From positions 4,352,001-4,416,000 of the forward strand of contig OZ244048.1 of the NCBI GenBank assembly GCA_965215265.1: a DNA stretch of 64,000 nucleotides. Direction: 5' to 3'. The first letter of the stretch is position 1. Each line of letters starts with the position of its first letter. The notes under the pieces are model-generated. The model had not been told where the DNA came from, made no database searches, and worked only from the letters and a program-made list of their open reading frames with translations. The position numbers were made by a program, and so were the translations under genes. The DNA is from Candidatus Poribacteria bacterium (GTDB lineage Bacteria > Poribacteria > WGA-4E > WGA-3G). Below, piece after piece: positions 3,287 through 61,618 of this stretch.

Positions 3287-3371
3287 TTTCGTATATCTCC
3301 GTACCATCAACGTCTTGGTAATCATAACTCGTGTGTAAATCTCGTCTGAGCCGTTCGATGTATTGTCTCTA
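3287..3371 (-). mobile_element. Dispersed ~87-nt element (type A), 85-nt copy inserted in MTase gene
   Basis: Core ACGAGATTTACACACG...GTTGATGGTACGGAGATATAC. Confidence 0.8.
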
Positions 3372-3583
3372 AAAGGCATGTTGAAAAGCAGAGGAAAGTT
3401 CCAATAAATCATTGGTGATAATTTGAAACCCTTGTTTTTTGAAATGTGCGGCGACACTAGCGGTGCCTGCGAAAAGGTCGCAGAACACGCCTTCTTTTGG
3501 AGATTCACCCCGCTGGCGGGGACAAATCCTCAATAACAAGTTTTTCTGTGACAAGGTGTTCAATATAGGTTAATAGGTTCAAT

Positions 3584-3672
3584 TTTTTTTGTATATCTCC
3601 GTACCGTCAACGCTTATGTCGTGGGTACTCGTGTGTAAATCTCGTCGGAGGTTATCTATGCTATGATTCATA
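3584..3672 (-). mobile_element. Dispersed ~87-nt element (type A), 89-nt copy inserted in MTase codon 7
   Basis: CTCCGACGAGATTTACACACG...GGTACGGAGATATAC followed by A8. Confidence 0.8.
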
Positions 3673-3816
3673 TTACAGCCGATATAACGCATCTTGTATA
3701 GGTGGTTGACAGTACAGGTTGCACAACTTTAACCCTACCTCCTTGTGTATTTCGTTTAGTTAATTAAAACATAAAGCGGCTCATGTTTGCAAGTTAAATA
3801 TGAGTGTAAATCGTTC

Positions 3817-5406
3817 TTAAAAACCAAACGGTAAGGTCGGGATTAAGGGTTTGCCAGTATACGGATTTATCATATCCGGCATTCTCGGTATATTTTGCCT
3901 TTTCTCTTCGAATCGGCTTTCAATGGAGTAGAGTTGGAGGCGCGGAAAAAGATTATTCCCTATCTGGACATTACCGAATTTTGAGAGCTCGTTTTGTGAT
4001 GCTTTGGAGGAGACAGGCTCCAAGGTAATATAGATGCCCATGACGGCATTTTCGCGATGGACAACATGGAGAAAATCACGAAGGTGACTGAGTGAAAACT
4101 TTCCACTTTTGACTTGGGCGAGAACGATTTTGCGGTAGCCGTCTTCTGGGGTTTCAAGTGTATTACCGATTCCATCAATGCCGCTATCCGCTCCACCGCT
4201 TTCGTTAGGAACAAGTCCGGGAATAAGGTTAATTGCCCATATCTCAAAATGCCTACGGTTCTCTTTAGCAAGACGGTGTGCACTCCTAAGGTCCGCGGGA
4301 ATGCCATAGGTTGAGATGTTTCTGCCTGGAAATCGTTGGTTCTTGATAACATCCAAAGCGGAAGGATTGATGTCAATGCCGATCCACTTTCGTTTTAGGA
4401 GATCCGCGGCGACAACGGTTGTGCCACACCCACAGAACGGATCAAGGACAGTATCACCTTCATCCGATGATGAATTGATGATGCGTTCGAGGAGTTCTAT
4501 AGGTTTCTGCGTATTGTATCCGAGACTGGACTTCCCACGAACTGGTGGAATGTCTGTCCAGATGTCCTGCAACGGAACACCTTTCGCTTCACTCAGGTAC
4601 TTTTTGTAATAATACGGACCGCCTTCTCTAAGTTGCACAAGGCGGTTGGATTTAGACATCTGTGTCATGTTTTCTTCACTGAACCGCCAAGCACGCGTGA
4701 TACCTTTAAAGGTATACGGTTTATTGCCACCTGCCTCGTTGGTACAGGGCAGCAGCCGATATAATCCTATTCCGTCTTTATGTTTGTAATGGGATTTAAC
4801 ATACGCAGTATCATAAGGCATGTATTGGATGCGATACTTAGTTTTGTTGGACATGCCGTAAAAAAGGATGGTGTCGTGGTTTCTTCCCATGTGACTTTTG
4901 GCGAGGTTGTGCGTATCTAACCGACGTTTCCAGACAATTTCATTTCGGAAATTGTCTGACCCGAAAATTGTATCCATAACGATTTTGAGATAGTGACTTG
5001 CTGTATCATCACAGTGGAGATAGATACTGCCTGTCGGCTTGAGAAGCCGCTTCATCTCAACTAAGCGGATTGCCATATAACTGATGTATGCCATCATGCC
5101 GCAGTTGCCGAGGATGAGGTGCAACCCGGCGATAGTTTTATGAATTGGTGATGTAACCATGCCGGTAAGTTCATCGACTCGGGCTTGTACCTCGCGGCTC
5201 CAATGCCACGTATCATCAAATGCTTTAAGCGAGGCAGAAGGTGTCTCCTTATTTGCGGCTTCAATCGCGTAAAGTTGATTGAACTTCTGCTTGGAATTGA
5301 AGGGCGGATCGGCGTACATCATATCCACCCAGCTATCCTGCCATTGGTGCATAATCTCCAAATTGTCGCCATAGTAGAGACTGTTGTATTCAGGAATTGT
5401 TAACAT
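3817..5406 (-). CDS. N4/N6 DNA methyltransferase (beta class) with C-terminal restriction-endonuclease-like domain
   Basis: YYGDNL, YADPPF, TQKPIELLERII, LDPFCGCGTT; C-terminal DSGIDG...AQVKSG; AAGAGG SD before ATG 5406. Confidence 0.8.
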   Translation of the reverse strand: MLTIPEYNSLYYGDNLEIMHQWQDSWVDMMYADPPFNSKQKFNQLYAIEAANKETPSASLKAFDDTWHWSREVQARVDELTGMVTSPIHKTIAGLHLILGNCGMMAYISYMAIRLVEMKRLLKPTGSIYLHCDDTASHYLKIVMDTIFGSDNFRNEIVWKRRLDTHNLAKSHMGRNHDTILFYGMSNKTKYRIQYMPYDTAYVKSHYKHKDGIGLYRLLPCTNEAGGNKPYTFKGITRAWRFSEENMTQMSKSNRLVQLREGGPYYYKKYLSEAKGVPLQDIWTDIPPVRGKSSLGYNTQKPIELLERIINSSSDEGDTVLDPFCGCGTTVVAADLLKRKWIGIDINPSALDVIKNQRFPGRNISTYGIPADLRSAHRLAKENRRHFEIWAINLIPGLVPNESGGADSGIDGIGNTLETPEDGYRKIVLAQVKSGKFSLSHLRDFLHVVHRENAVMGIYITLEPVSSKASQNELSKFGNVQIGNNLFPRLQLYSIESRFEEKRQNIPRMPDMINPYTGKPLIPTLPFGF

Positions 5407-5419
5407 GACAAATTTCCTC

Positions 5420-5612
5420 TTTTTAGTATATCTCCGTACCATAACCACTTATGCTTTGATAGCTCGTGTGTAAATCTTGGCAGGTTCGGTATTCTTTGTC
5501 TGTCCATGAGACAAGATAACCTTTTATCTGCCACCCACTGGGCAGGGTGAATTCCCTTTGTACAGGATTTAACATAGCAGCAATTGGCATCGGGCTCCTG
5601 TAGACAAAAAAA
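5420..5612. mobile_element. Composite repeat: type A element with nested TGGCAG..CTGCCA insert, plus an opposite-facing degenerate type B copy
   Basis: 5420-5533 closely matches 27088-27200; 5562-5612 is the reverse of the TATAGGAGCCC-type arm. Confidence 0.7.
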
Positions 5613-5619
5613 ATCATTA

Positions 5620-6843: not shown

Positions 6844-7005
6844 TGCGTTATAGACACCTCTATTGCGTGAGTGACTCCGACGGAGCTCTATCTTCGCGAA
6901 TGACCCATTTGCTCATTGCTTTTTCAATTACCTTAATCAGTTTTTCTTTTTAGTCTCCAAAGAAAGCGCAGAAATCATCAGCCCGGGGACTATCACAGAG
7001 ATGAC

Positions 7006-8202: not shown

Positions 8203-8284
8203 TAAATTCTCCTTGCGCGAATCTTATATTCGCTCTGTATCATATATCACAAATGTTGTACACTGACGGGAAGGCGTTTCTGTC

Positions 8285-10423: not shown

Positions 10424-10445
10424 CTGTTTCCCTCCATTTAGACTC

Positions 10446-11108: not shown

Positions 11109-11239
11109 GCTGCAGTAAGAAAAAAAATAGATTTTAATATAGTATACCATGAAGTGGGAAAATGGTAAAGAAAATTTGTGGTGCTTCCCGTTTTATAGGT
11201 GGGCAAAACTGCCTGAATCAGGGTTTTCAGGCGAATCGA

Positions 11240-13180: not shown

Positions 13181-13220
13181 CAGTTTTTTTTGTCTCTCAA
13201 TTCCATCTGATAAGGAGAGT

Positions 13221-14078
13221 TGCGTTGATACAATCTAAAATGCTTTTTTTTCGTGAAAACGGCTTATCTGGCGACGGCTTGTGTTTTGCTCCAAAGTCTC
13301 CAATTCACGAAAAGTTTCACGAGAGGTTTTCATGAGCGTAGACTACCACTGCGTTCATACAATACAAAACCCATTTCTTTCGTGAAACGGCTCATATCGC
13401 AACTTCCTTTGTTTTGCTCCAAAGTCTCCAATTCACGAAAAGTTTCACGAGGGATTTTCGTGAGCGTAGACTACCACTGCGTTCAGAAGATTCGACATGC
13501 GTTTTTTCGTGAAACAGGCTTATCTGGCAGTTTCCTCTGTTTTGGTTGGTGGTATGCAATTCACGAAAAGTTTCACGAGGGATTTTCGTGAGCGTAGACT
13601 ACCACTGCGTTCAGAAGATTCGACATGCGTTTTTTCGTGAAACAGGCTTATCTGGTAGTTTCCTCTGTTTTGGTTGGTGGTATGCAATTCACGAAAAGTT
13701 TCACGAGAGGTTTTCGTGAGCGTAGACTACCACTGCGTTCATAAAATCCAAAGCCGTTTCTTTCGTGAAAACGACTTATCTGGCAGCTTCAGATGTTTTG
13801 CTCCAGAGTCTCCAATTCACGAAAAGTTTCACGAGAGGTTTTCATGAGCGTAGACTACCACTGCGTTCATACGATACAGAATCCGTTCCTTTCGTGAAAC
13901 GGCTCATATCGCAACTTCCTTTGTTTTGCTCCAGAGTCTCCAATTCACGAAAAGTTTCACGAGAGGTTTTCGTGAGCGTAGACTACCACTGCGTTCATAA
14001 ATACAAAGCCGTTTCTTTCGTGAAAACGGGTTATCTGGCAGCTGCCTCTGTTTGACTACAAACTATCCAATTCACGAA
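13221..14078. repeat. 128-bp-period non-coding tandem array (six full units plus flanking partials)
   Basis: GCGTAGACTACCACTGCGTTCA starts at 13336, 13464, 13592, 13720, 13848 and 13976; detached partial unit near 14235-14292. Confidence 0.95.
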
Positions 14079-14199
14079 TGGAGGCGGTTATCGCCGAAGC
14101 AGCTTCGGCCCCAAAGTCGTCGCCACTTCGCGCAGACGCGTTTGAAATAAATCTTGATATCCTTATCTATCTGCTTAGGCTCTTAACTTCTCATGATAA

Positions 14200-20483: not shown

Positions 20484-20506
20484 GCGTGTAATGTTGGAAC
20501 TCACGC

Positions 20507-20781
20507 TTTCGTATATTTCAGCCCGACACAAATTGCTGAAATGAACACCCTAGCATAAATTTCGTTCTTTCGTCTATAGGAGCCCCATAAAGGCGTTTGT
20601 TATGTAAAATCCTGTGAAAACCTCGCCAGAGCCATCTGGTGCTATGCCTAAGAAGTCCCCGACGAGATGTGCACAGTGATTGACAACGCCTGATGCGTTG
20701 ATGGGCTCCAGTATACAAAAAGACGAGATTTACACCCGAGCCATCAAGGCATAGGCATTGACGGTACGGAGATATATAACA
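20507..20781. mobile_element. Cluster of four dispersed-element copies (two minus, two plus; includes a tail-out dimer)
   Basis: TATATTTCAGCCC, TATAGGAGCCCC, GGGCTCCAGTATACAAAA and GGTACGGAGATATAT arms. Confidence 0.7.
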
Positions 20782-21878: not shown

Positions 21879-21923
21879 GGGCCCTTTTTTTACTCAAATC
21901 TGAAAATAGATTGGCTACAAACT

Positions 21924-22011
21924 TTGAGAACCAATACATCAGGAGCCTCCGACGAGATTTACACACGAGCTGTCAATACCTAAGCGTTGATGGTACGGAG
22001 ATATACAAAAA
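21924..22011 (+). mobile_element. Dispersed ~87-nt element (type A)
   Basis: ACATCAGGAGCCTCCGACGAGATTTACACACG...GGAGATATACAAAAA. Confidence 0.85.
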
Positions 22012-22030
22012 TAGAATGGATTGATAGACA

Positions 22031-27034: not shown

Positions 27035-27087
27035 TATTCCATTTTGAGCTTAGTTGATGAGCTCTCTAAAAACTATTAAAATACCAA

Positions 27088-27238
27088 TTTTTAGTATATC
27101 TCCGTACCATAAACGCTTATGCTTTGATAGTTCGTGTGTAAATCTTGGCAGGTTCGGTATGCTTTGTCTGTCCATGAGACAAGATTACCTTATCCTGCCA
27201 ATCTATAGATCGTCGGAGTTTTCCGATGTTTAGATTCA
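27088..27238 (-). mobile_element. Type A element with nested 55-nt inverted-repeat insert
   Basis: AAATCT|TGGCAGG...CCTGCCA ATCTATAGAT|CGTCGGAG. Confidence 0.8.
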
Positions 27239-27447
27239 TAAAGTAGGAGGATTACAATACCACATACAAGAAGCGGTCATAGTGCACCTATTACTAGACC
27301 GGCTATAATTGAAGGCAGCCAATCAATCCTAGCGTCGAAGTTAACAGCCCGGTATATCCAAGAAATGACGCAGGTCAGAATAAAGGTGAAAGCAAAACTT
27401 ATTTTGTAAACTTCCTACATGCTCGTAAATTTCTGAAAATTGCTTTT

Positions 27448-47337: not shown

Positions 47338-47380
47338 CTCTTTTTTTTCACAAATTTGTATCTTCGGAAAAGTTGAGTGA

Positions 47381-48142: not shown

Positions 48143-48486
48143 TCTCTAATTACAATCGATTTTTTATCCATCTCAAACAATTATAATTGATTTTTTTTAT
48201 TGATGTCAAACGTTTTTATTTTGCAAAGAATCCACCTCTACCCGAGATGTTTTTTCAATCGGTAGCCAAGAAAGCGTGCCTGTATTCAAAGTTATGGAAA
48301 CGAGGGTTCCGCAACCAATAGTGGTAATCTGTCTATAGTGATTAAACTTTCGGAATGTGAGAGGTGCTCACTGCATTCAAAAAATCCCTCTTGCATGCTC
48401 CGGATACTGCTGACTACTTGTATCATGCCGGTTTAACAGCCCTGAGAACCGACCAGGTATCTCAAGCCTTCGCCTACCGTGCTTAA

Positions 48487-48595
48487 GCGATTGCGAGAAA
48501 AGTGATTGAAGAATCATAACCTAGTGAGGTTCAGACGAGATTTACACACGAGTTATCAAAACATAGACGTTGATGGTACGGAGATATACAAAAAA
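48487..48595 (+). mobile_element. Type A element with ARKVIEES* 5' extension
   Basis: GCGAGAAAAGTGATTGAAGAATCATAACCTAG...GGAGATATACAAAAAA. Confidence 0.8.
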
Positions 48596-48647
48596 CCTTC
48601 AAAGCAGCAGTCTGGTAGGCGAGATATATCAGGTACCGACGGGGTGC

Positions 48648-51578: not shown

Positions 51579-51733
51579 AGAGATATTCCTCCTCAATTTT
51601 TTTTGATAGCGTTCAATGGTGATATCCACAACTTAAATCCGACCTTCAATGGCACTGCCGACTCTTCCCTGCTTGCAAGGCTAAAGTCGGCAAAAGCCAC
51701 TTTTCAGCAATCATTTGTTAAACGGAGTAGAGA

Positions 51734-52963
51734 TTAAAAAATTTGCGCAATCATAACGAGATCGACATTTAGGTTCAATTGATCTCTGTCCGCGGCCCTA
51801 CCTGCAGGCCGTTCGCGTTCTTCATTAGGACGCGTGTTCGACTGTTTATCCACAGTAATTCTTAGATCCTTGGCTGACAACCACTTCGTGTTAGTTTCAA
51901 TCAGGTGGTTTAAATTAACCAATTTTTCCATGCTGGTTTTGAACTTCATTTCAATAATGTAGTTATCAAACTGATACGTCGAGGGTGCCAAATCCAATTG
52001 CCTCAAAAGTGCTGTCCGTTGTTCCTGAATTTGTCCAACGTAATCGATGAGTGCGACAATGAATTCCTCTGCTGGTAGGGTCTCCGAAGTCAATGCCCCT
52101 TGTGTACGCAGCGATTGCGTGAGTACGTCTAGCAGTTTACTATTCGCTCTGAATTGAATTTCAACATAGGTGGGCTTCGCCCCGATGCCGAAAATGCCGG
52201 GGGTAGCAGGAGATTGGTGTTCATAAATCTGTGCTTCAAGGAAGCCGGGCCGGAAATTCGATGCCCCCAACAACTCTTGCGAAATCATTGAGAGAATAAA
52301 GTCTGCGAGTTCTATCCGCGTCTGTATAGGTATAACTTCCGGTAGTGACGCAAATTCCCGCTGTTTAATTGTCGTAGCGATTTTTTTGCTACTGTCGATG
52401 TTCTCTGTTTTTCCTTTTTCCGGGGGTTTATCTTCGCCCAGCCATGCGTTCATCAATTTTGAGAACGTGTCATCTTCAGTTTCTTGTTCCGCTTCCGCTT
52501 CTAGACTCTTTTTCTCTGCTTCCAAGTGTTTCATGTACAGATAAAGCACCAGATTCTGACGCGCCGGTGTGCCGAGTTTAACTGTCTGTTTGCTGGGTGA
52601 AGGTTTCGTCCGGAGTTGGTAATTTTGCTCAACCCCGGCGCGCTTTATCAATTCGTCAACGCGCTTTCTGATAACTGTCTCAGGATGTTCTTGATGAAAA
52701 ATGGTAAGCGGATCTGGTGTATCTTTTGACGATGCTAACCCGGTATCTTTATAAATTTCCCTTTCAATAGGCTTTAGGATTTCGGCTGCATGAACTAAAT
52801 TTTCTGCATTCGCTAAGTTTTTCTGTTTAGCATCTATGTTTTGGTTAGCAAACAGTTCGTAGAAGGCGGGGCCCCCTTGCAGCACAAGTACAATGAAGAG
52901 CACAATGCCTAAAATTCCAAGTAATATTCGGGCCTGAGGGGTTAATTCAAAATTAAATTCCAT
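51734..52963 (-). CDS. T2SS-associated membrane-anchored protein (GspM/PilO-like position)
   Basis: Single N-terminal TM; operon position between the PilM-like gene and gspD. Confidence 0.55.
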   Translation of the reverse strand: MEFNFELTPQARILLGILGIVLFIVLVLQGGPAFYELFANQNIDAKQKNLANAENLVHAAEILKPIEREIYKDTGLASSKDTPDPLTIFHQEHPETVIRKRVDELIKRAGVEQNYQLRTKPSPSKQTVKLGTPARQNLVLYLYMKHLEAEKKSLEAEAEQETEDDTFSKLMNAWLGEDKPPEKGKTENIDSSKKIATTIKQREFASLPEVIPIQTRIELADFILSMISQELLGASNFRPGFLEAQIYEHQSPATPGIFGIGAKPTYVEIQFRANSKLLDVLTQSLRTQGALTSETLPAEEFIVALIDYVGQIQEQRTALLRQLDLAPSTYQFDNYIIEMKFKTSMEKLVNLNHLIETNTKWLSAKDLRITVDKQSNTRPNEERERPAGRAADRDQLNLNVDLVMIAQIF

Positions 52964-53220
52964 TTTTTTGTATATTTCAGCCCAATAAAGGCTGCTGCTA
53001 TTTACAACCCTGTGAAAATCTCGCTAGAGCCGCTTTATGCTATGCCTAAGGAATCTCCGATTTTTTGTATATGTTAGCCCAATAAAGGCTGCTGCTATTT
53101 ACAACCCTGTGAAAATCTCGCTAGAGCCGCTTTATGCTATGCCTAAGGAATTTCAGACGAGATTTACACACGATTAAACAAAATCATAAGCGTTGACGGT
53201 ACGGAGATATACAAAAAAAA
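52964..53220. mobile_element. Two tandem type B copies plus an inverted type A copy
   Basis: Duplicated AGCCCAATAAAGGCTGCTGCTATTTACAACCCTGTGAAAATCTCGCTAGAG; ends GGAGATATACAAAAAAAA. Confidence 0.8.
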
Positions 53221-53222
53221 GA

Positions 53223-55151
53223 CTAACGATGCTTTAATTCTGGTTTTACAGACTCTTTTTTTTGCGGTGTGGTTTCGGATTGTTTTTCAGTATCCTCAGA
53301 ATTGTCGGTTGCTGAGATTTTTTCTTCAGGTCCGTTTTCATCCGAAGTTTCCGCGTCCGGAGAAGTATCCTCAGAATTCTGTTCTTCAAGCGTTTCAACA
53401 TCTGGCGGATGGATTTCAATTTCTGCTTCCGGTATTTGCCGTTCAGGCATCGGGTGACGTTTTTTAGCGAGCGTTTCAGGTGCTGAAGTGCTGAGTTTAC
53501 AATGCACTTGGACCCGGAAAATCTGTTTTCTATTCTCTGTCATTGCCGAAACTTCCCCGAGTTCAATACTCGTGAACACGTTAGAACGGTTGAGAGTGCT
53601 GAACAAAGCATTAATTGCCTGATGGGAAGCGGCCTCCAAATTAAAGGTAATCTGTGCTTTAGCAGGTTCATCCAAATTGCTGATGTTGAAATGGGTCCAT
53701 GCGATCTGAGTCCGATCTTTAAACATTTCGCTCAGGGCTTTTAAAATATCTAGTGGCGAAATGCGGTGTGTTAACAGATTCGTGAGTGCCAATTCGCGGG
53801 TGATTTGTGTCTTAGCCTGATTCATCAACGGTGTGATTTGAGCAGTGTGTGCGTTTAACATTTCTGCTCTATGCTGCTGCATTTGCTGTAAGGTGACAGC
53901 CACAAAAATAAGTCCGGCTATGGCTGTCCCACCCCACGCGCTTGTGAGCACAAGTTGACGTTTCCGGTTCGCTTGCGTATGGGTTGCTTCCACCTCTTTG
54001 GGTAAAAGCGAGACGCGTGTTGCAGGGTTCAGTGCATTGAGTGCAATGCCTAATGTGACTGCGAGGGTATCGCCCCATTCATCAAATACTTGTTGTGTCC
54101 GAGGAGCTATCATCGCAATTTCTGCTCGGTTATGAATTGCGATAGGGAGTGTCATTCCCACCTTCAGTGCCTCAACCGGATTCCAAAGGTGCGTTGGAAT
54201 ATTCAGTGTCTCTTCACAAACTTGGGTGAGTTCAAGCAGTCGTGCGCCTCCGCCGCATAACCAGAGTTCTGTGTTTCCTTCCGGTAAAGCCGCGGATTCA
54301 TATCTGCGTCTCGCTTCAGCTGCCGGTTGATTTCCCGTTTCGCGGAGTGCGGCGGCAATGGAACGTCGTAATTCACTGATAAATCGGGTTGTCCAAGCAG
54401 TTGCGGGTTCTTCACGTGCAGAAATTGTCCGCTTTTCCTGCTCTGCAGTTTCAAATTCAACGTTCAGTGCTGCCATCACACTCTCTGTCAAATGATTTCC
54501 GCCGGTCAAGAAACTCCGTGAAAACCGCAGCGAATTGCCCTGCATGAAACAGAAATCAGTCAGTTCGGCACCGATATCAACAATAATTCTATTTTGTAGG
54601 CTATTTTCCGGTGTAGAGGTAATACGTGCGGTTTCTGCAATTGCTACCATTGAAGGAACGATCGCTGATGGTGAAATTCGATGCTTTTCGAGCGGTGAGA
54701 TATATTCCTGAACAGTTGCACGGCGAGTTGAAATGAGTTCTACGGAGGTTGATTCGGCTGTCCGCCGGACATCATGGTAAGTAAAAATTGCATCTTCCAC
54801 CCGGAAAGGCAGCTCCGTTTCTGCAGCCATTGCAACCAAATTCTCAAGTTGGTCATCCGATGCATCCGGCAGGTTCGGTAAACGTTTCGTACTCACCAAG
54901 AATCGCGGGAGTGCAATAGTTACCTGCATCTTACTTCTGTTGAAAATGGCTCGCACCCCGGTCGGAATGGGATTACCTAGCGATTTCCAGATTTCGTCTA
55001 TTGCTGTGGTTACTGTTTGCTTATTCTCATTTTTAGGACGCTCTACAACGATTGCATTAACAAAATGCAGAGATGTAGCTGTTTGTTCGAGTTGCACGAC
55101 TTTAGTCGTTTTTGTGCCGATATCTATTGCGACGACCTGATTTTTTGCCAT
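53223..55151 (-). CDS. PilM/GspL-like protein fused to a PilN-like C-terminus
   Basis: AIDIGTKTTKVV, IVDIGA, LWLCGGGA actin-like motifs, then TM and periplasmic domain. Confidence 0.8.
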   Translation of the reverse strand: MAKNQVVAIDIGTKTTKVVQLEQTATSLHFVNAIVVERPKNENKQTVTTAIDEIWKSLGNPIPTGVRAIFNRSKMQVTIALPRFLVSTKRLPNLPDASDDQLENLVAMAAETELPFRVEDAIFTYHDVRRTAESTSVELISTRRATVQEYISPLEKHRISPSAIVPSMVAIAETARITSTPENSLQNRIIVDIGAELTDFCFMQGNSLRFSRSFLTGGNHLTESVMAALNVEFETAEQEKRTISAREEPATAWTTRFISELRRSIAAALRETGNQPAAEARRRYESAALPEGNTELWLCGGGARLLELTQVCEETLNIPTHLWNPVEALKVGMTLPIAIHNRAEIAMIAPRTQQVFDEWGDTLAVTLGIALNALNPATRVSLLPKEVEATHTQANRKRQLVLTSAWGGTAIAGLIFVAVTLQQMQQHRAEMLNAHTAQITPLMNQAKTQITRELALTNLLTHRISPLDILKALSEMFKDRTQIAWTHFNISNLDEPAKAQITFNLEAASHQAINALFSTLNRSNVFTSIELGEVSAMTENRKQIFRVQVHCKLSTSAPETLAKKRHPMPERQIPEAEIEIHPPDVETLEEQNSEDTSPDAETSDENGPEEKISATDNSEDTEKQSETTPQKKESVKPELKHR

Positions 55152-55192
55152 TTTTCTTGTTTCAACTCCCGAAATTGTGTTATGTTTTTCGA

Positions 55193-55310
55193 TTTTTTGT
55201 ATCTTTCAGCCCCATCAAGGGTTATGTATTGTTAAATCGTGTGTAAATCTCGTCGGAGCCTCACTAGGTTATGATTCCTCAAGAACTTTACGCGCTAACT
55301 CTTCAATCTC
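55193..55310 (-). mobile_element. Type B element with EIEELARKVLEES* 5' extension
   Basis: GTGTAAATCTCGTCGGAG core; extension matches 58553-58599. Confidence 0.8.
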
Positions 55311-55419
55311 CGCTGGGTCGCCACCCTGATCTCGAACAGTTTTCTCCCAATCAATACTCACCCGATGAGCCGCTGGCGGGGCCCAAAAGAATTGAACCCA
55401 GTTTAGTAAGGAAATTTTG

Positions 55420-56955
55420 CTAATACTGCCGCCAATATGGGATTGCCACAGTTTCCCCAGTCCGATTGATAATACCGATACACCGGGCGATGACTCTATT
55501 ATTTGCGTCAACGCCAGCGGATTCAATGCGAAAAGCGTGTGAGCGATAGGTTACCCAATCCACAATGTTCCTAAACGTCTCAAAATCAATTTCCTCAATT
55601 TCTAAAAGTTGGGATATTGCGGTGAAAGGGTTTCCTTTGATTTCTTCTGCTGTTAAATTTTGTATCTCCGGGGTGTTAGGTACTTCTTCTTCTCTCCGGG
55701 CAACAATCGCTTGTGCTTTTTCGCCATCCATTCCCGGCAAGAGTGCTAAGGTTTCCGGCGGTGCCGTATTTATATTGATTAACCCGCTAAGCGTCTCCTC
55801 ATCTTTTATGGTAACTTTATCAGCGATGCTGACAAATTCGTCTTGCGTTAACATTTTGACCTCTTTTAGCGCATCAATGTTCTGGAAATTCCCTTGTGAG
55901 TTGCGGTGTGCCACAATACGTTGGGCAATTCCCTCATCAATACCTTCAAGCGATTGAAGTGTCTCTATATCTGCAGTATTGATATTAATCTGTCCGTTTT
56001 CTGCCTGCTGCTCCTTTTCTTGGTTATCTTGTTCTTCGTTACCTTGTGTGGTAAGTCGAGCTCGGACGGAATTGAAGAGTTCATCGGAGACGGCTTGGAT
56101 GTCTACTAATGCTGCTATCTGGTCAAATTCGCGTTGTTGGATGAACGACTCCGCCTCATCTGGCGTGAAAACGGGCCCGTTATTTCCCTGAATTTGGGTT
56201 AGCTGCGAAGATTCTGCCGTATTCACGTTGACGCGCTCCTGCCCTTCTGCATCTGTATTTGTATCAATTGAATAGACTGTTGCTAAATGCACTAATCCGA
56301 TTCCACTTGTGGGGATATTTTCCTGTCTCGTGCCAGTTTCTGTTACTGGTATTGCAGTCTCTTCCTGCTGTGTAGTCGATTGGACGGGTGCCGACGAATT
56401 TTGTTGTACCCCGTAAAGCAGCTCTGCTGACATGTCATCAACGCCTGCAAGCGCACGAACGGTGCGGTATGGCTGCCCTTCCACAATGTTGTTCGCTAAT
56501 TCCTGCGTAAAGGCATCATCCGGGTTTGCCCCTATGTGTACCAACAAATTAAGGATGAGCGAAACGTCAGCCGTATTGAGGTTAATCTTTGATGCTTCGT
56601 CTATAATGTTAACGCTATAGGTTAAAAGGTTTCCGCCTTGAATACCGTCTTCAATTTGTCCCTCAATCGGTTCACCCCAATTTTCACCAAGGGCATCAAA
56701 AGGTATCTGATCGTCGCGTAGTAGAGCGAGTGCCCATTCAAAACCGGCTCTGGCAGCATAGTGAAATTTTTCGCGATGCAAGAAATTTCGCTGTGCACGC
56801 TGCTCCAAGTGAATCGAATAGAGCAGTTGTGTCGCGAGGATGGAGAGGAGTGTCAAGATCCAGAGCGTTGAAATGAGAGAGAGACCTTCCTCGTTGCTGC
56901 AGCTGCATGCCACTTTATTTTTTTTAAATATGGGCACGTATGCAGGATTTTCCAC
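55420..56955 (-). CDS. gspK: Minor pseudopilin GspK with helix-hairpin-helix repeats
   Basis: G|LSLISTLWIL, DEASKINLNTA, ININTA repeats. Confidence 0.8.
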   Translation of the reverse strand: MENPAYVPIFKKNKVACSCSNEEGLSLISTLWILTLLSILATQLLYSIHLEQRAQRNFLHREKFHYAARAGFEWALALLRDDQIPFDALGENWGEPIEGQIEDGIQGGNLLTYSVNIIDEASKINLNTADVSLILNLLVHIGANPDDAFTQELANNIVEGQPYRTVRALAGVDDMSAELLYGVQQNSSAPVQSTTQQEETAIPVTETGTRQENIPTSGIGLVHLATVYSIDTNTDAEGQERVNVNTAESSQLTQIQGNNGPVFTPDEAESFIQQREFDQIAALVDIQAVSDELFNSVRARLTTQGNEEQDNQEKEQQAENGQININTADIETLQSLEGIDEGIAQRIVAHRNSQGNFQNIDALKEVKMLTQDEFVSIADKVTIKDEETLSGLININTAPPETLALLPGMDGEKAQAIVARREEEVPNTPEIQNLTAEEIKGNPFTAISQLLEIEEIDFETFRNIVDWVTYRSHAFRIESAGVDANNRVIARCIGIINRTGETVAIPYWRQY

Positions 56956-56965
56956 TGTTTTTTCC

Positions 56966-57052
56966 TTTTTTTGTATATAGGAGCCCCGTAACGCTTTATG
57001 TTTTGTTAATGACTGTGTAAATCTCGTCGGAGGTTTTGATGTTTAGATTCAA
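56966..57052 (-). mobile_element. Type B element
   Basis: About two differences from the copy at 57933-58019. Confidence 0.85.
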
Positions 57053-57093
57053 TATCCAGTTTGGATCGAGCTCGGTACTCCGCCTAATTCTGA

Positions 57094-58041
57094 TTAATTT
57101 GCAGCTGCGCCTGGCAAATGAACCATTGTTGATTGCGTCATCATTCCCGGCTGTGTTACGTTTTCGCCTTCTTGCAGGGTTGATGCTGTCTGCGGGCTTG
57201 AGAGATCTGCGTCTTCCCCTTGCACTGAGATTAGAATTTGAACTGCAAGCGGCGTACTTTCAGTTTCGTCCCATGAATCATACCAAGTTTCCTCGCCATC
57301 AAAGTACTTCAAATCGAAACTGACAATTCCAGAAATGAGGGCTGCGAATTGAGAAGAGATCGGTTCGCCATTTTCGTCGGTTTCAGGTGCATCTCCGGTC
57401 TCTAATAAATTTCCAATAACCAGCTGCGGGTCAAGTGCAGTGGTTGTAACCCGATAGAGGACCAGTGCCTCAGTTTGCTGCTCAGAACTCTGTTCAGTTC
57501 GGGTTGGAAGTGCTGTTTCGCCCAGCGGTATTTCATTTCCGAGGAAATAGGCAACGCGCTGTACATCACTAACGAGTGGAGACATAGAGATACTTTGGGT
57601 TCCAACGCTTTCTGCAGCCAATTGGAATAAAAAGGGATCTGGGTCTGTGTTTACTAACGTGACGAAGCTAAGTATGTCCCGGTCTCCGGATTCCATCGGC
57701 ATATCTTGTGTGTATAAAGCAAACTCCGGTTCTTCAGGCGATACCTGTATGTGTCGTAAATCGTTCACGAGTTTGTCCAACGCGACGCGACTTCTTTGGG
57801 CGGCTAACGTCTTTGTAGCAGTTCTATGGTAGACATCTACCGCTGTCTTAAAGACAAAATACGAAGTGCCTCCAAGAATAACCAGAATGCTAACAGCTAC
57901 AAGCATTTCAATAAGTGTGAAGCCCCTATCAGTTTTTTGTATATAGGAGCCCCGTAACGCTTTATGTTTTGTTAATAACTGTGTAAATCTCGTCGGAGGT
58001 TTTTGATGTTTAGATTCAATTTTTTGTAAATGCACTGTCAA
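57094..58041 (-). CDS. gspJ: Minor pseudopilin, GspJ-like, with an 87-nt in-frame insertion in its leader
   Basis: RG|FTLIEML prepilin motif; VAYFL, W..SWD...PLAVQI. Confidence 0.75.
   Translation of the reverse strand: MTVHLQKIESKHQKPPTRFTQLLTKHKALRGSYIQKTDRGFTLIEMLVAVSILVILGGTSYFVFKTAVDVYHRTATKTLAAQRSRVALDKLVNDLRHIQVSPEEPEFALYTQDMPMESGDRDILSFVTLVNTDPDPFLFQLAAESVGTQSISMSPLVSDVQRVAYFLGNEIPLGETALPTRTEQSSEQQTEALVLYRVTTTALDPQLVIGNLLETGDAPETDENGEPISSQFAALISGIVSFDLKYFDGEETWYDSWDETESTPLAVQILISVQGEDADLSSPQTASTLQEGENVTQPGMMTQSTMVHLPGAAAN
57933..58019 (-). mobile_element. Type B element inserted in frame in the gspJ leader
   Basis: TTTTTTGTA repeated at 57933 and 58020 (87 nt apart). Confidence 0.88.
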
Positions 58042-58053
58042 CCCCTGCTTCCC

Positions 58054-58479
58054 CTATCGTCCCTGCTGTTTTTGCCTATCTGCAATAAAGGTATGCATGG
58101 ACATCGAACGTGCCCCGCCGAGGTGTTGCCATGTGACGGTGACTTGAACTCTTACGACTGCTGCAACCTCTTCAGATTGTACCTCTTCAACGACAGACTG
58201 CCATTGGTACCGAGAATTGTCGCCAAATTCCCCGCTATCTTCACCGACTTCAGGGAAACCCTCCATTTCAATCTCAGCCATCCGGTATTTGATGAGGTAG
58301 AGTGCTGTGGTGCGATCGTCTGAAAGTCCCTGAGTACGGGTAGTTGACGAGAAAACTTGCGAAAGCGCAGGCAGAACCACCGATAAAATCGCCAAAGTTA
58401 CCAGAATTTCAACCAATGTAAAGCCTTGGTTACTTGTTTCATGTCGAGCCAATTCAAATGGTAGCTGATATTGTCTCAT
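58054..58479 (-). CDS. gspI: Minor pseudopilin, GspI-like
   Basis: QG|FTLVEIL; short; VRVQVTVTW. Confidence 0.75.
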   Translation of the reverse strand: MRQYQLPFELARHETSNQGFTLVEILVTLAILSVVLPALSQVFSSTTRTQGLSDDRTTALYLIKYRMAEIEMEGFPEVGEDSGEFGDNSRYQWQSVVEEVQSEEVAAVVRVQVTVTWQHLGGARSMSMHTFIADRQKQQGR

Positions 58480-58481
58480 GG

Positions 58482-58599
58482 TTTTTTGTATATCTCCTTA
58501 CCATCAACGTCTATGTAATGATAGCTCGTGTGTAAATCTCGTCTCAGCCGTTCTAGGTTATGATTCCTCGATAACTTTTCGCGCAAGCTCTTCAATCTC
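58482..58599 (-). mobile_element. Type A element with EIEELARKVIEES* extension, abutting the gspI start
   Basis: GGTAAGGAGATATACAAAAAACCATG. Confidence 0.85.
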
Positions 58600-58629
58600 G
58601 AGGGTTACAACCCCGGAAGCACTTGAAGA

Positions 58630-59373
58630 TTATTCGCGAGTTTCTGCTCGAAATCCCAGCAGTTCAATATCTTCAGGCGTGAGCTGTCGAACGTGAACAC
58701 GCCCATTTGCTAACTCAACGGTGATCGACATCATCTGATTTTGCTGGTTCCGAAGATAGATCAACGTTTCCTCGGAAGTGCCGGTTGGCGAAAAATAGAC
58801 GTACTCAATCCCATCCTCTATCTGTGCAGTTCGCCCATTGTGGTTTGTTACCATGCTGGCGAATGTAACGTTCTGTTCTAAGGTTTGTGGTATTCCTAAG
58901 ATGTCACTTGTACGAGACAGTGCTTGTTGTCCACTTGCCGTAGCGGCTGCGCCTTGACGCTGCAGAGTGCCTGCTTGTGCTGTTATCACCGTAGAATTTT
59001 CTGCTTCGACGATTGAGGTCAATGGGTCCCTCGGGTTAAACGTTTCACTAGAGGCGAGCCAATAAAGTTCCCTGTCCAAATCAATGACAACAAGGTAGGG
59101 TATTCGCTCTGTAATTGCCATATCCCGTGCAAAGGTGAGCAGGTCTCGGAGGGTATAGGCAGATGCCTTCAACCGGCGCGTGGTTGCAAACCCCTTCAGC
59201 GCAGGCATGGCTATGGAGGACAGTACGGCGATAATTGCCATGACGAGCAGTAGCTCCATGATAGTAAAACCGAGCTGGCGAACGGAGGTCTGGTTACGAA
59301 CCGTGCCTCCGTTTTTATAGGAACCGTCAGTTGTTTGCGGCGGCTGTATCCCAATTGGTAATATCCGCGTCAA
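58630..59373 (-). CDS. gspH: Pseudopilin, GspH/FimT-like; start uncertain (TTG 59373 has a GGAGG SD)
   Basis: LG|FTIMELL; ARDMAI; VYFSPTG. Confidence 0.7.
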   Translation of the reverse strand: MTRILPIGIQPPQTTDGSYKNGGTVRNQTSVRQLGFTIMELLLVMAIIAVLSSIAMPALKGFATTRRLKASAYTLRDLLTFARDMAITERIPYLVVIDLDRELYWLASSETFNPRDPLTSIVEAENSTVITAQAGTLQRQGAAATASGQQALSRTSDILGIPQTLEQNVTFASMVTNHNGRTAQIEDGIEYVYFSPTGTSEETLIYLRNQQNQMMSITVELANGRVHVRQLTPEDIELLGFRAETRE

Positions 59374-59779
59374 ATTCTTCGCCTCCGACCTTACCGTCTT
59401 TTCCGAGTGAGTAGAGGTCATAATCGTACCCAGGGCGCGTTCCGGGGTATCTATAAATGTAACTGTTGTTCCATGGATCTAGAAAAGTCTCAGCTTTAAG
59501 GTAGGGTCCGTTCCAAGTCTCGGGCGTTGGATTGGGTGCCTGCCATAAAGCAGCGAGGCCTTGTTCAGTGGTTGGGTAGGTCCCGACTTCAATCGCATAC
59601 AGCTCTAAAGCTGTTTTGATGTTTCCAATTTCAATTTTAGCTTTCGAGACACGTGCCTTTTGCGGCGCATTTACTATCTTAGGTGCGATGAACGTTGCCA
59701 AAATGCCTAAGATAACTATAACAATTGTCAATTCAATCAAGGTTAATCCTGATTGGTCTGTTCTGAGTTGCGTTAGCAT
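59327..59779 (-). CDS. gspG: Major pseudopilin
   Basis: SG|LTLIEL, YPTTEQGLAAL, WNGPYL, DPWNNSYIY, SLGKDG. Confidence 0.93.
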   Translation of the reverse strand: MLTQLRTDQSGLTLIELTIVIVILGILATFIAPKIVNAPQKARVSKAKIEIGNIKTALELYAIEVGTYPTTEQGLAALWQAPNPTPETWNGPYLKAETFLDPWNNSYIYRYPGTRPGYDYDLYSLGKDGKVGGEEFDADITNWDTAAANN

Positions 59780-59856
59780 GTAAATCACCTTTTTTCTGGG
59801 GGAGATCGACGCAACGGCGATGTGCACGTTGTGTCGCTATGTCCCTTTTAGGATAA

Positions 59857-59935
59857 TTCGTGTATTTCAGCCCGATAACGCTCTATGTTGTGTCAATGAA
59901 TGACTGTGTAAATCTCGTCGGAGATTTTCTAGGTT
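59857..59935 (-). mobile_element. Type B element
   Basis: TATTTCAGCCC...GTGTAAATCTCGTCGGAG. Confidence 0.75.
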
Positions 59936-60007
59936 TTAACGGTAATGGTCCTTTATTCTTTTACGGCGGTTTAGCCACATTTATTGTTATTAGAAAGACT
60001 GCGTTTT

Positions 60008-61231
60008 TTACCCGGTGAGTAATTGGTTTGCCTCAAAGATCGGCAGAATCATTGCGACAGCGATAAACCCGATGATTAAACCCATCAATAGGATTACCAG
60101 GGGACCGATAGACCCGGTTAGCCGATCGAGGCTCTTCTTAATTTCTACATCGTAGTATTCAGAAAGTTTGCTGAGCATGCTGGCCGGTTCGCCCGATTCC
60201 TCGCCGACTGCTATCATTTGTGTGACAAACTCCGGAAAATCGCTATTTCTTTCAAGTTCCCGGGCGAGTGTTGAGCCCTGCTCAACAGCTTTTTCTGCCT
60301 CAGCAACCGCATTACTGTAAACTTTATTTCCGATTGTATCTTTTGCAACTTGGAGTGCAGGCAGCATTCGCACACCGTTCTGCAAAAGGGTTGTCATCGT
60401 GCGGGTGAATCGAACAATGGCGAAGGTACTAAAAATCGAACCGACGAGGGGCAGCCGTATTTTCAGTCTGTCAAACCAGACTTGTCCTGGCTCTGTTTGG
60501 AGTACTTGCCGTATTCCAACGGCCCCGATGATAATGATAATTCCTACTATCCACCAATATTGCGTAACGACATCTGTTGTGTTAATCAGCACTTGTGTTG
60601 GAAGCGGGAGTGCTACGCCCATATCTTCAAACATCGCAGTGAATTGTGGAACAACAACAATCATGAGAATGGTAACTGCGGTGATACTTAGCGTTAAGAG
60701 AATAGCAGGATAGAAGAGAGCCGAAATAACATCATTTTTCAGAATGCGCTGACGTTCGGCAAATCCTGCCAATCGTTCAAGCACTAATCCAAGCACGCCG
60801 CCACTTTCACCGGCTTTAACCATATTGATATAGAGATTTGAGAAGACTTTAGGGTGTTGGTTCAATGCATCGTTAAACGTCGCACCATGCTCAACATCGT
60901 ATTTGACTTGTGAAACGATTCGATGGAGTGCTGGGCTCTGGATTTGGCCTAGAGTGACCTCTAACGCTCTCGGCAGTGCGACATGGGCGTTTAGCAACGT
61001 TGAAAGTTGATAAGTAAAGAATTCAACATCGGCCGATTTAACTTTGCCTCTGCCAATTTGAAGCCAACGCATGAAGCTGCTTTGCGTTTCTTCAGCTTCT
61101 TCAGCAATTTGTGTAGGCCAATAGCCCATCTGCCTTAAGCGTGAGATAAGTTCCGCTTTTGAGTCGGCTTCCAATGTATTTTTTACGGTGTCCCCGCCGT
61201 GGGTGAGTGCTTCATATCGAAAGATAGGCAT
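60008..61231 (-). CDS. gspF: T2SS inner-membrane platform protein
   Basis: MVKAGESGG, YPAIL, MIAVGEESG, AMILPI. Confidence 0.9.
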   Translation of the reverse strand: MPIFRYEALTHGGDTVKNTLEADSKAELISRLRQMGYWPTQIAEEAEETQSSFMRWLQIGRGKVKSADVEFFTYQLSTLLNAHVALPRALEVTLGQIQSPALHRIVSQVKYDVEHGATFNDALNQHPKVFSNLYINMVKAGESGGVLGLVLERLAGFAERQRILKNDVISALFYPAILLTLSITAVTILMIVVVPQFTAMFEDMGVALPLPTQVLINTTDVVTQYWWIVGIIIIIGAVGIRQVLQTEPGQVWFDRLKIRLPLVGSIFSTFAIVRFTRTMTTLLQNGVRMLPALQVAKDTIGNKVYSNAVAEAEKAVEQGSTLARELERNSDFPEFVTQMIAVGEESGEPASMLSKLSEYYDVEIKKSLDRLTGSIGPLVILLMGLIIGFIAVAMILPIFEANQLLTG

Positions 61232-61270
61232 CTATGTTTTCTCGCGCTGTAGCTTGTAGGCAGCTGCGTT

Positions 61271-61618
61271 CTTTTATATATCTCCGTACCATTAACGCTT
61301 CTGCTTTGATGGCTCGTGTATAAATCTCGTCGGAGGCTCCTGATGTTTAGATTCAATCTTTTATATATCTCCGTACCATTAACGCTTCTGCTTTGATGGC
61401 TCGTGTGTAAATCTCGTCGGAGGCTCCTGATGTTTAGATTCAATCTTTTATATATCTCCGTACCATCAACGCTTCTGCTTTGATGGCTCGTGTATAAATC
61501 TCGTCGGAGGCTCCTGATGTTTAGATTCAATCTTTTATATATCTTCGTACCATCAACGCTTCTACTTTGATGGCTCGTGTATAAATCTCGTCGGAGGCTC
61601 CTGATGTTTAGATTCAAT
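61271..61618 (-). repeat. 4x head-to-tail tandem of the 87-nt type A element
   Basis: Exact 87-nt period with few substitutions. Confidence 0.95.

What the first reader, a model, noticed from the sequence alone, without database searches (positions are those of the whole stretch)
3287..61618. ~23 copies of an ~87-nt structured, A-tailed dispersed element family
Seen: the consensus in tail orientation is GAATC..CTCCGACGAGATTTACACACGAGCCATCAA-N~10-TTGATGGTACGGAGATATAC-A(n); a type B variant ends GGGCTCCTATATAC-A(n) or GGGCTGAAATATAC-A(n). Copies lie at ~3287, 3584, 5420, 5562, 20507-20781 (x4), 21924, 27088, 48506, 52964-53220 (x3), 55193, 56966, 57933, 58482, 59857 and 61271 (x4). About 18 of 23 are co-directional with local transcription. 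The stems CTCCG/CGGAG and CCATCAA/TTGATGG are present, and the variants CTGTCAA and TTATCAA keep pairing through G-U only on that strand. Monomers lack terminal inverted repeats and the window has no cognate transposase. Inference: a non-autonomous mobile element that may move via RNA (SINE-like), analogous in behaviour but not in sequence to Rickettsia palindromic elements or REP/ERIC.
Basis: partly seen in the sequence, partly recalled or inferred. Interest (0 to 1): 0.82.

Follow-up and report, generated by a model that had tools for sequence, protein, structure and literature searches.

The report
Selfish mosaic repeats, some inside genes
A sponge-associated bacterium carries about 800 copies of a roughly 90-base selfish DNA repeat that fills the gaps between its genes and in a few cases sits in frame inside essential genes, much like the palindromic elements of Rickettsia; how it moves is still unknown.

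Summary
The window has 22 profile hits, plus 2 arms read by eye, at the listed places. The genome has 817 hits in 438 clusters, 1.3% of its bases. Earlier scan notes on other DNA of this genome (e1-1459511, e1-1459510) reported the same family.

The copies are insertions. All 8 repeat-bearing gaps of a type II secretion operon are short and repeat-free in a complete genome of the same genus. Copies are mosaic: singles, head-to-head A/B doublets, and tandem arrays.

New here: 21 hits lie deep inside 10 long open frames. These include a double-UvrA gene (8 hits), GlyQS and GcvP. In the window, one copy sits in a pseudopilin leader peptide. All are read in frame.

A 17-base box plus an ACGAAAA tail defines a wider superfamily. 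Box counts are 231 in this genome, 87 in another genus and 4 in the sister species.

The SINE-like RNA route is not supported:
- the A-run is fixed at 4-7 bases
- there is no consistent target duplication
- the stems show no covariation.

No Y1, TnpB or IS110 enzyme is encoded, so the mobilising enzyme is unknown.

Verdict: a new member of the REP/BIME and RPE kind.

The parts
3285..3380 (-). full type-A unit, sense to the flanking methylase genes
   Evidence: nhmmer hit, E 4e-24; sequence
3582..3675 (-). full type-A unit; 100% identical to a copy at genome position 479830 that has unrelated flanks
5416..5501 (-). type-A core whose 5' part is replaced by a TGGCAGG..CCTGCCA hairpin module
5556..5612 (+). 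degenerate type-B arm, head-to-head with the unit at 5416-5501; read by eye, approximate ends
   Evidence: missed by the profile
20506..20779 (.). cluster of arms: a by-eye type-B fragment (about 20506-20556, -), then 20557-20653 (-), 20640-20721 (+) and a short unit at 20722-20779 (+)
21921..22014 (+). full type-A unit; identical core to copies at genome positions 1276432 and 2303313 with unrelated flanks and no target duplication
27083..27248 (-). one unit split inside its box (CCGACG|AGATTT) by a nested ATCTATAGAT + TGGCAGG..CCTGCCA module
48506..48598 (+). full type-A unit, antisense, downstream of the secretin gene
52956..53222 (.). two type-B units (-, 97-nt period) followed by one type-A unit (+), head-to-head
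55187..55390 (-). long form: the unit plus about 110 nt of 5' extension holding a truncated copy of the 46-codon ORF; this gap is 51 nt in G001
56962..57055 (-). type-B unit between T2SS genes
57922..58019 (-). type-B unit read in frame inside the leader peptide of a pseudopilin; adds about 31 residues before GFTLIEM
   Evidence: G001 leader is MHLKKQDIADS|GFTLIEM
58478..58600 (-). 118-nt form of the unit ending 2 nt before the ATG of the next pseudopilin gene; it replaces the native GGAG leader seen in G001
59857..59939 (-). type-B unit between T2SS genes
61264..61625 (-). four tandem 87-nt units between the gspE-like and gspF-like genes; 87 nt is 29 codons and the array is one open frame; this gap is 37 nt in G001

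Best explanation
This is a non-autonomous, selfish small DNA repeat family of the REP/BIME and Rickettsia-palindromic-element kind.

Anatomy. A unit of about 87-95 nt has four parts:
- a variable 5' module (..GAnTC.AAAC.T..)
- an almost invariant box, CTCCGACGAGATTTACA
- a variable, often hairpin-forming middle
- a conserved 3' end, GGAGATATAC or GTAGAC, followed by (A/G)AAAA.

How it spread. Units have been copied to some 440 places in this one species. Most lie between genes and about 70% are in the sense orientation. Once in place they rearrange among themselves into head-to-head A/B doublets, tandem arrays, short units and nested inserts. A small share landed, or survived, in frame in linkers and leader peptides of conserved proteins, where they are read through as hydrophilic peptides.

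Mechanism, inferred and not shown. The most likely route is copying as single-stranded DNA by a trans-acting enzyme that recognises the box and the 3' end, in the manner of HUH/Y1 enzymes acting on REPs or on IS200/IS605 ends. That enzyme is not among the families I could test, and no Y1 gene is left in this genome. I put about 0.3 on the HUH-type route. I put about 0.55 on the wider statement: a selfish DNA-level repeat with no dedicated host function.

Shown here: the insertions (empty sites in a relative), the mosaic anatomy, the in-frame copies and the conserved box across genera.
Inferred: the single-strand route, and selection as the cause of the sense bias.
For: Size and layout of the family.
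- 817 profile hits in 438 clusters, 63,373 bases.
- 218 singletons. Adjacent pairs: 169 head-to-head, 21 tail-to-tail, 189 tandem.

Insertion.
- The 8 repeat-bearing gaps of the T2SS operon are 37-220 nt and repeat-free in G001, a same-genus genome in a single contig.
- The element-derived peptides are clean extra segments relative to the G001 orthologues of double-UvrA, GlyQS, GcvP and the pseudopilin.

Recent copying.
- Of 485 full copies, 334 had a near-full-length partner more than 3 kb away. 27 of these were 100% identical and 25 were 98-99% identical.
- Their flanks are unrelated, and I saw no target duplication in the 23 near-identical pairs printed.

Features typical of hairpin or single-strand elements.
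- No terminal inverted repeats in monomers.
- G.U cells outnumber A.C cells 423 to 104 on one strand.
- Sense bias of 110 to 47 among singletons in co-directional gaps, p = 5e-7, and 37 to 10 among tandems.
- Doublets built from two arm types.
- Another small module inserts precisely into the box in 13 of 18 cases.

Conserved box.
- The 17-mer with up to 1 mismatch occurs 231 times in G000, 87 in G004 and 4 in G001. It occurs 0-2 times in the other 173 of the 176 genomes searched, and reversed-pattern controls give 0-1.
- The middle of the unit differs completely between these genomes.

In-frame copies.
- 21 hits lie in 10 open frames with at least 100 codons on both sides; 19 are sense.
Against: No mobilising enzyme was found.
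- Y1_Tnp is absent from G000 (tblastn best E 0.12).
- Relatives with few or no boxes have many Y1 genes: G001 has 34 and G095 has 10. Across the 5 genomes compared, box number and Y1 number do not go together.
- No box lies within 1.5 kb of the three Y1 genes I looked at.
- No TnpB TNB domain and no IS110.

The hairpin is neither covarying nor conserved in the G004 and G001 versions. A structure-reading enzyme is therefore not clearly implied.

No presence/absence polymorphism was seen. Contigs of 4 runs from 4 studies all break inside the repeats at the same junctions.

Only 88 of 376 full copies are stop-free in the main frame, so the family is not shaped for coding as some RPEs are.

Gene positions come from my own crude ORF caller, not from a gene finder.
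Confidence: 0.55

Rival explanations
1. SINE-like retroelement. The unit is transcribed, reverse-transcribed from its A-rich 3' end and inserted at A/T-rich sites. This leaves 5'-truncated copies and head-to-tail arrays.
For: - The 3' end is fixed while the 5' ends vary. Long forms show a ladder of 5' truncations of a 46-codon ORF, starting at residues 1, 4, 7, 8, 16, 19, 22, 24, 28, 31, 34, 34 and 35.
- 3' fragments abut the tails of full copies.
- Some targets are A-runs, or show AAAG on both sides.
- There is a sense bias relative to transcription.
- One RVT_1 gene exists.
Against: - The A-run is short and tightly distributed: mode 5, range 0-8, over 347 anchored copies.
- No consistent target duplication.
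- 3'-truncated hits are also common. Roughly 90, against roughly 115 5'-truncated hits once the discrete short unit is set aside; these are my sums from the bins.
- The short unit starts at one fixed point: 77 of 142 tail-abutting hits start at profile position 40-49. Box and tail share ACGA(A/G)A, which I infer could give this form by deletion.
- No group II intron or other RNA family matched.
Confidence: 0.08
2. Host-function element. The box and the 3' end are binding sites for a host protein or RNA, for example in mRNA stabilisation, translation leaders or nucleoid organisation. On this view the copies are kept because they are useful.
For: - The box is kept almost unchanged in three genomes of two genera while the rest of the unit diverges.
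- About 70% of copies are in sense orientation within operons.
- In uvrA the start codon itself lies in a unit.
Against: - Distribution is patchy. Box counts of 0-2 in 173 of the 176 Poribacteria genomes searched, including complete ones, and only 4 in the sister species.
- All 8 T2SS gaps work without the unit in G001.
- Copies sit in every context: convergent gaps, divergent gaps and inside genes.
- Promoter-like sites are not enriched: 12 found against 12.6 +/- 3.9 in shuffles.
- No structure conservation.
Confidence: 0.12
3. A classical MITE of a DDE transposon. On this view the head-to-head doublet, whose outer ends are inverted repeats (TTTTTGTATATC ... GATATACAAAAA), is the real mobile unit, and single units are decayed halves.
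For: - 169 head-to-head adjacencies against 21 tail-to-tail.
- The doublets fold as long foldbacks.
Against: - 218 of 438 clusters are singletons, and identical singletons occur at distant sites.
- The two arms of a doublet belong to different subfamilies.
- No target duplication was seen.
- No longer element bounded by the same ends and carrying a transposase was found.
Confidence: 0.12

Closest known systems
Rickettsia palindromic elements (RPEs)
   Same: Small repeats without a transposase. They are found between genes and also in frame inside unrelated housekeeping genes, where they add a hydrophilic peptide; the mechanism of movement is unknown. I read passages of the review PMC10969869: RPEs of about 150 bp, ten families, 44 integrations reported in metabolic genes of R. 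conorii, nearly half of the RPEs able to make translational fusions.
   Different: There is no sequence relation that I could test, because no RPE sequence was at hand. Here only 21 of 817 hits are clearly intragenic, and only 88 of 376 full copies keep an open frame. The host is a sponge-associated free genome of 4.8 Mb, not a reduced intracellular one. The units form arrays and A/B doublets.
REP / BIME / REPIN elements with their RAYT enzymes (enterobacteria, pseudomonads)
   Same: Hundreds of short extragenic units. Two unit types are paired in inverted orientation with linkers, and there are tandem clusters. Units have no inverted ends and no duplications, are species-specific, and show a one-strand asymmetry. 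This comparison rests on my own knowledge of the literature, not on a paper read here.
   Different: No RAYT or Y1 gene in this genome. The unit is two to three times longer than a REP. The conserved part is an unpaired 17-nt box, not a GTAG-flanked stem. Some copies are intragenic.
IS200/IS605-derived palindrome-associated elements (PATEs)
   Same: No inverted ends, no duplication, a hairpin close to one end and strand-specific behaviour. Relatives of this genome are rich in IS200/IS605-type Y1 genes.
   Different: G000 has none of these genes. Only one hairpin, and it is not conserved. No fixed tetra- or pentanucleotide on the left flank could be established: ATTA or ATTG in 3 of 8 junctions.
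ERIC / Correia / other bacterial MITEs
   Same: Small size, co-transcription with operons and occasional intragenic copies. The review passages name intragenic ERIC elements.
   Different: Monomers lack inverted ends, no TA or other duplication was seen, and no parent insertion sequence was found.

Membership tests
SINE-like / retro-mobile element | a reverse transcriptase able to copy it (non-LTR or group II type) | tested here: not met
One RVT_1 match in the genome. No group II intron RNA in the window.
SINE-like / retro-mobile element | a variable-length poly(A) tail and variable target duplications | tested here: not met
   A-run mode 5, range 0-8. No consistent duplication.
SINE-like / retro-mobile element | 5'-truncated copies sharing a common 3' end | tested here: inconclusive
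   A ladder exists in the long forms, but 3'-truncated hits are also common and the short unit starts at one fixed point.
REP/BIME/REPIN | a cognate RAYT (Y1 HUH) gene in the genome | tested here: not met
   0 matches in G000, with controls ringing; tblastn best E 0.12.
REP/BIME/REPIN | units of two types in alternating orientation; inverted doublets more frequent than chance | tested here: met
   169 head-to-head against 21 tail-to-tail adjacencies; A/B arms in doublets.
REP/BIME/REPIN | strictly extragenic position | tested here: not met
   21 hits deep inside 10 open frames; checked against orthologues.
Rickettsia palindromic elements | in-frame insertion in unrelated conserved genes with the reading frame kept | tested here: met
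   Double-UvrA with 8 hits, GlyQS, GcvP and a pseudopilin leader.
Rickettsia palindromic elements | sequence homology to RPE families 1-10 | not testable with these tools
   No RPE sequences were held. Rfam gave nothing at E up to 1.
MITE (DDE type) | terminal inverted repeats on the mobile unit | tested here: inconclusive
   Absent in monomers. Present as the outer ends of the doublets.
MITE (DDE type) | target site duplication | tested here: not met
   None in the 23 near-identical pairs or at the 8 T2SS junctions. One AAAG pair in uvrA.
MITE (DDE type) | a parent insertion sequence with the same ends | tested here: not met
   No multi-copy long element carries the ends. ISfinder was not available.
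IS200/IS605-derived PATE | insertion 3' of a fixed short target word | tested here: inconclusive
   Left flank is ATTA or ATTG in 3 of 8 junctions. The 5' flank is W-rich with low information.

The most novel reading that the evidence does not exclude
The 'box-tail' units could form a Poribacteria-wide superfamily: about 86-87 nt, with the box CTCCGACGAGATTTACA and an ACGAAAA tail. On this reading they are moved by an enzyme or route outside the known classes for end-less, duplication-free elements, since no Y1/HUH, TnpB or IS110 gene is present and no usable reverse transcriptase was found. Copying would be anchored at the 3' end, leaving variable 5' ends. The route would be precise enough to seed in-frame peptides in essential proteins.
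Probability: 0.15. Interest if true: 0.8.

Novelty: new member of a known kind. Interest (0 to 1): 0.45.

Why it matters
The finding adds a well-documented second case, in an uncultured sponge-symbiont phylum, of small selfish repeats that colonise operon spacers and also the coding sequence of essential genes (UvrA, glycyl-tRNA synthetase, glycine dehydrogenase, a pilin leader).

It gives a clean natural experiment. A closed sister genome has almost none of these repeats, which allows study of how such repeats rewrite leaders, start codons and protein linkers.

The invariant 17-base box, shared by otherwise unrelated units in two genera, is a concrete handle for finding the unknown mobilising or binding factor.

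For annotation, these repeats break short-read assemblies at fixed places. They also create false N-terminal extensions and spurious ORFs, such as the 144-codon frame over the 4 x 87 array.

Tried and rejected
- RNA evidence: no RNA holder was listed for the stretch.
- Population polymorphism: I laid contigs of 4 runs from 4 studies on 48000-63500. All contigs break inside the repeats and no joint skips a single unit. Contigs cannot show absence.
- Public collections: the gapped pattern gave 0 hits and the 19-mer gave 2 single hits in unrelated gut bacteria in genome contigs. The 19-mer gave 2 single hits in human-gut contigs in metagenome contigs. I read all of these as chance.
- Plasmids and phages: no blastn match.
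- Rfam: nothing at gathering score or at E up to 1.
- Protein search with the array-encoded peptide against longer proteins: none at E up to 0.001. The tool itself calls this weak evidence.
- Replication-strand bias: the cumulative GC skew has no clear V shape, so replichores could not be set.
- GANTC (CcrM-type site) lead: GANTC is present in 271 of 438 full copies, but it is barely enriched in the repeats, at 4.8 per kb against 3.7 per kb genome-wide. Dropped.
- Link to the 10-copy methylase unit: doublets lie downstream of several copies, but the homologous block is not bounded by the repeats, and the 'two genes' are one frameshifted methylase. Dropped as a mobiliser.
- Y2_Tnp (IS91): no match, but the control genomes were silent too, so this is uninformative.
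- The 46-codon ORF of the long form: no Pfam family, and not found in 111 other genomes of the family.
- Literature: three searches gave nothing relevant in the listings: Poribacteria + intergenic + repeats; Poribacteria + MITE; sponge symbiont + repetitive extragenic palindromic.
- One search was an empty placeholder call and returned an error.

Full report
**What is there**

The window is G000:C1:4352001-4416000, from a single-contig genome of 4.83 Mb with 48% G+C. Earlier notes of this scan call it a sponge-associated Poribacteria genome. I did not test that name.

- Its 3' 20-mer occurs 13 times in the window with up to 3 mismatches, and never in 100 shuffles.
- A profile from 11 window copies finds 469 hits genome-wide at E < 1e-3.
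- A profile from 217 full copies finds 817 hits at E < 1e-2 (392 on +, 425 on -), of which 22 are in the window.
- Together the hits cover 63,373 bases, 1.3% of the genome.
I could see them by eye, but the profile missed them.
- The 4 x 87-nt array at 61270-61618 is confirmed at 98% matches.

**Anatomy**

Conservation starts about 6-8 nt before a GA(A/G)TC word, roughly 30 nt upstream of GACGAG. It ends after ATATAC plus (A/G)AAAA. The A-run has mode 5 and range 0-8 over 347 anchored copies.

In 196 distinct type-A copies the best-kept positions are the unpaired stretch CGAGATTTACACA and the 3' stretch GGTACGGAGATATAC. The 5' arm of the inner stem is the most variable part.

- 1881 of 2548 cells pair, against 1873 +/- 9 when partners are shuffled.
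- On 16 window copies 70.5% of cells pair, against 72.9% in shuffles, with 481 of 500 shuffles at least as high.
- RNAalifold predicts no consensus pair.
- G.U cells (423) do outnumber A.C cells (104) on the tail strand. Most of this comes from C-to-T changes in one arm opposite a sequence-conserved arm.
- Fold z-scores are -3.6 for a perfect-stem copy (on either strand), about 0 for the CTGTCAA variant and -0.95 for a type-B copy.

**Organisation**

The 817 hits form 438 clusters:

| Cluster type | Count |
|---|---|
| singletons | 218 |
| head-to-head pairs | 83 |
| tandem pairs | 48 |
| '-++' triplets | 37 |

- Head-to-head adjacencies (169) far outnumber tail-to-tail ones (21).
- The two arms of a doublet usually belong to different subfamilies, A and B.
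- A discrete short unit starts at ACGAGATTT and follows the tail of a full unit. 77 of 142 tail-abutting hits start at profile position 40-49.
- Box and tail share the word ACGA(A/G)A. I infer that deletion between these words explains the short unit.
- Near-identical cores carry different 5' modules, so the parts are shuffled between copies.
- 38 hits stop at the box. Most of these are units split there by another small module, or units that abut an antisense arm.
- That module is the palindrome ATCTATAGAT plus a TGGCAGG..CCTGCCA hairpin. It sits at GATTT|ACACAC or CGACG|AGATTT, and the flanks rebuild the box in 13 of 18 cases, without duplication. The window unit at 27083-27248 is one such split unit.

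**They are insertions**

G001 is a same-genus genome in one contig of 4.0 Mb. It has 0 matches to the 19-mer and no BLAST match to a whole unit. Its type II secretion operon is collinear with window 48000-63500 at 71-81% identity.

All 8 gaps that hold repeats in the window are short and repeat-free in G001. Examples are 37 against 396 nt between the gspE-like and gspF-like genes, and 51 against 231 nt before the gspK-like gene.

No consistent duplication flanks these insertions. In 3 of the 8 the left flank is ATTA or ATTG.

Copying has been recent. Of 485 full copies, 334 had a near-full-length partner more than 3 kb away, and 27 of those were identical. Their flanks are unrelated and show no duplication.

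Contigs of four runs from four studies all enter the repeats at the same junctions and break there. These sites are therefore shared by the sampled populations, and no empty allele was seen. Contigs cannot show absence.

**Orientation**

These figures use my own crude ORF calls, made on a repeat-masked genome.

| Set (co-directional gaps) | Sense | Antisense |
|---|---|---|
| all hits | 386 | 190 |
| singletons | 110 | 47 (binomial p = 5e-7) |
| tandems | 37 | 10 |

In the window 19 of 22 hits are sense. Promoter-like sites are not enriched over shuffles. The antisense strand of the 87-nt units carries a weak hairpin-plus-T match. This could contribute to selection against antisense copies, but that is an inference.

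**Copies inside genes (new here)**

Twenty-one hits lie in 10 stop-to-stop frames with at least 100 codons on both sides, and 19 of them are in sense.

- Double-UvrA. A 2068-codon double-UvrA frame holds 8 hits. Aligned with the 1901-residue G001 orthologue, the element peptides are clean extra segments:
  - 36 residues after IVHIMPPK
  - 79 residues after GTPHAFSQE
  - 7 residues in the linker between the two halves
  - a partly replaced stretch near VDGTLRPAL
  - an N-terminus whose ATG lies in a unit.
- GlyQS. The linker of the fused glycyl-tRNA synthetase holds one and a half units in frame. G001 is fused too, but has a different and shorter linker.
- GcvP. It has an internally deleted unit in its inter-domain linker.
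- Subtilase. It holds two hits; I made no orthologue check.
- Pseudopilin, in the window. The type-B unit at 57922-58019 is read through from the start codon of a pseudopilin. This gives ..HLQK-IESKHQKPPTRFTQLLTKHKALRGSYIQK-TDRGFTLIEM.., where G001 has MHLKKQDIADSGFTLIEM.

This is the behaviour described for Rickettsia palindromic elements; I read passages of the review PMC10969869. It is a minority behaviour here. Only 88 of 376 full copies are stop-free in the main frame.

**A wider superfamily**

A 94-nt unit used as a BLAST query over 176 genomes of the phylum matched only G000, G004 and G133. G004 is another genus of the same family, in 2 contigs, and gave 226 first-look candidates. All matches outside G000 fell on the 5' module plus box.

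| Genome | Box 17-mer count, up to 1 mismatch |
|---|---|
| G000 | 231 |
| G004 | 87 |
| G001 | 4 |
| G133 | 2 |
| six other genomes | 1 each |
| the remaining 166 | 0 |

Reversed-pattern controls gave 0-1.

The G004 units are 86 nt and the G001 units 87 nt. They share with G000 only a ..CAT.AGAAA. lead-in, the box and a (G/T)ACGAAAA tail. The middle, including any hairpin, is different.

The family is not in 185,579 species genomes or in the JGI metagenome set beyond chance single hits, nor in plasmid or phage records.

**How it moves**

- the A-run is short and fixed
- there is no variable duplication
- adenines are conserved
- no RNA family matched.

The features that favour the RNA route are the ladder of 5'-truncated long forms and the A-rich targets. 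They keep it alive at low odds.

Other features resemble HUH/Y1 single-strand transposition of REPs and IS200/IS605 ends:
- no inverted ends
- no duplication
- one-strand asymmetry
- a hairpin near one end
- inverted doublets
- precise insertions into the box.

Yet G000 has no Y1 gene, no TnpB TNB domain and no IS110. G001, which has only 4 boxes, has 34 Y1 matches.

I therefore commit to a DNA-level selfish repeat at about 0.55. Within that, a single-strand HUH-like route through an enzyme now missing or unrecognised stands at about 0.3. I mark the mechanism as inferred.

**Verdict**

This is a new family of a known kind. Three points are worth keeping:
- in-frame colonisation of essential genes
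- the invariant box shared across genera
- the lack of any known mobilising enzyme.

Noticed in passing
G000 whole genome; G001, G095, G004, G002: G000 has no IS200/IS605-type Y1 transposase and no TnpB TNB domain, while its same-genus relative G001 has 34 Y1 matches. G095 has 10, G004 has 3 and G002 has 2. This is a striking difference in mobile-element load between close relatives.
   Followed up: partly
window 27172-27206 and about 98 places in G000 (for example C1:484591, C1:1251790): A second small repeat family: hairpin units TGGCAGG..CCTGCCA of 50-70 nt. A sub-class carries the palindrome ATCTATAGAT and is inserted precisely into the box of the first family, in 13 of 18 cases, without duplication.
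   Followed up: partly
G000:C1:817424-819838 and about 9 other places; window 3817-5448: About ten copies, 92-95% identical, of an N6_N4-type DNA methylase gene that is split by a frameshift into 128-145 and 475-497 codon frames. Repeat doublets lie just downstream of several copies. The window holds an unsplit 543-codon relative.
   Followed up: partly
window 13221-14078: An unrelated tandem repeat, 128-nt period, 6.7 copies, 85% matches, lying between a DUF6785/DUF6784 gene and an Eco57I-type restriction-modification gene.
   Followed up: no
window 40492-41628: A YhgA-like (Transposase_31) ORF that belongs to a multi-copy family in this genome (14 self-BLAST pieces over the region). It contains a perfect 12-nt tandem repeat (40687-40744, 4.8 copies). 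It is not next to any unit of the family studied.
   Followed up: no
G000:C1:1077174-1083425; G001:C1:3668160-3673818: A single frame of about 1900-2070 codons made of two complete UvrA-like halves. It is conserved as a fusion in both species.
   Followed up: partly
G000:C1:1271324-1271464 and truncated copies, including window about 55272-55388: A 46-codon ORF (MERINPVFWAPP...) whose stop codon lies in the 5' module of the unit. It has no Pfam family and was not found in 111 other genomes of the family. It occurs as a ladder of 5'-truncated copies.
   Followed up: partly
window 16-2037 and 11240-13180: Two paralogous large DUF6785 + DUF6784 membrane-protein genes lie 9 kb apart.
   Followed up: no
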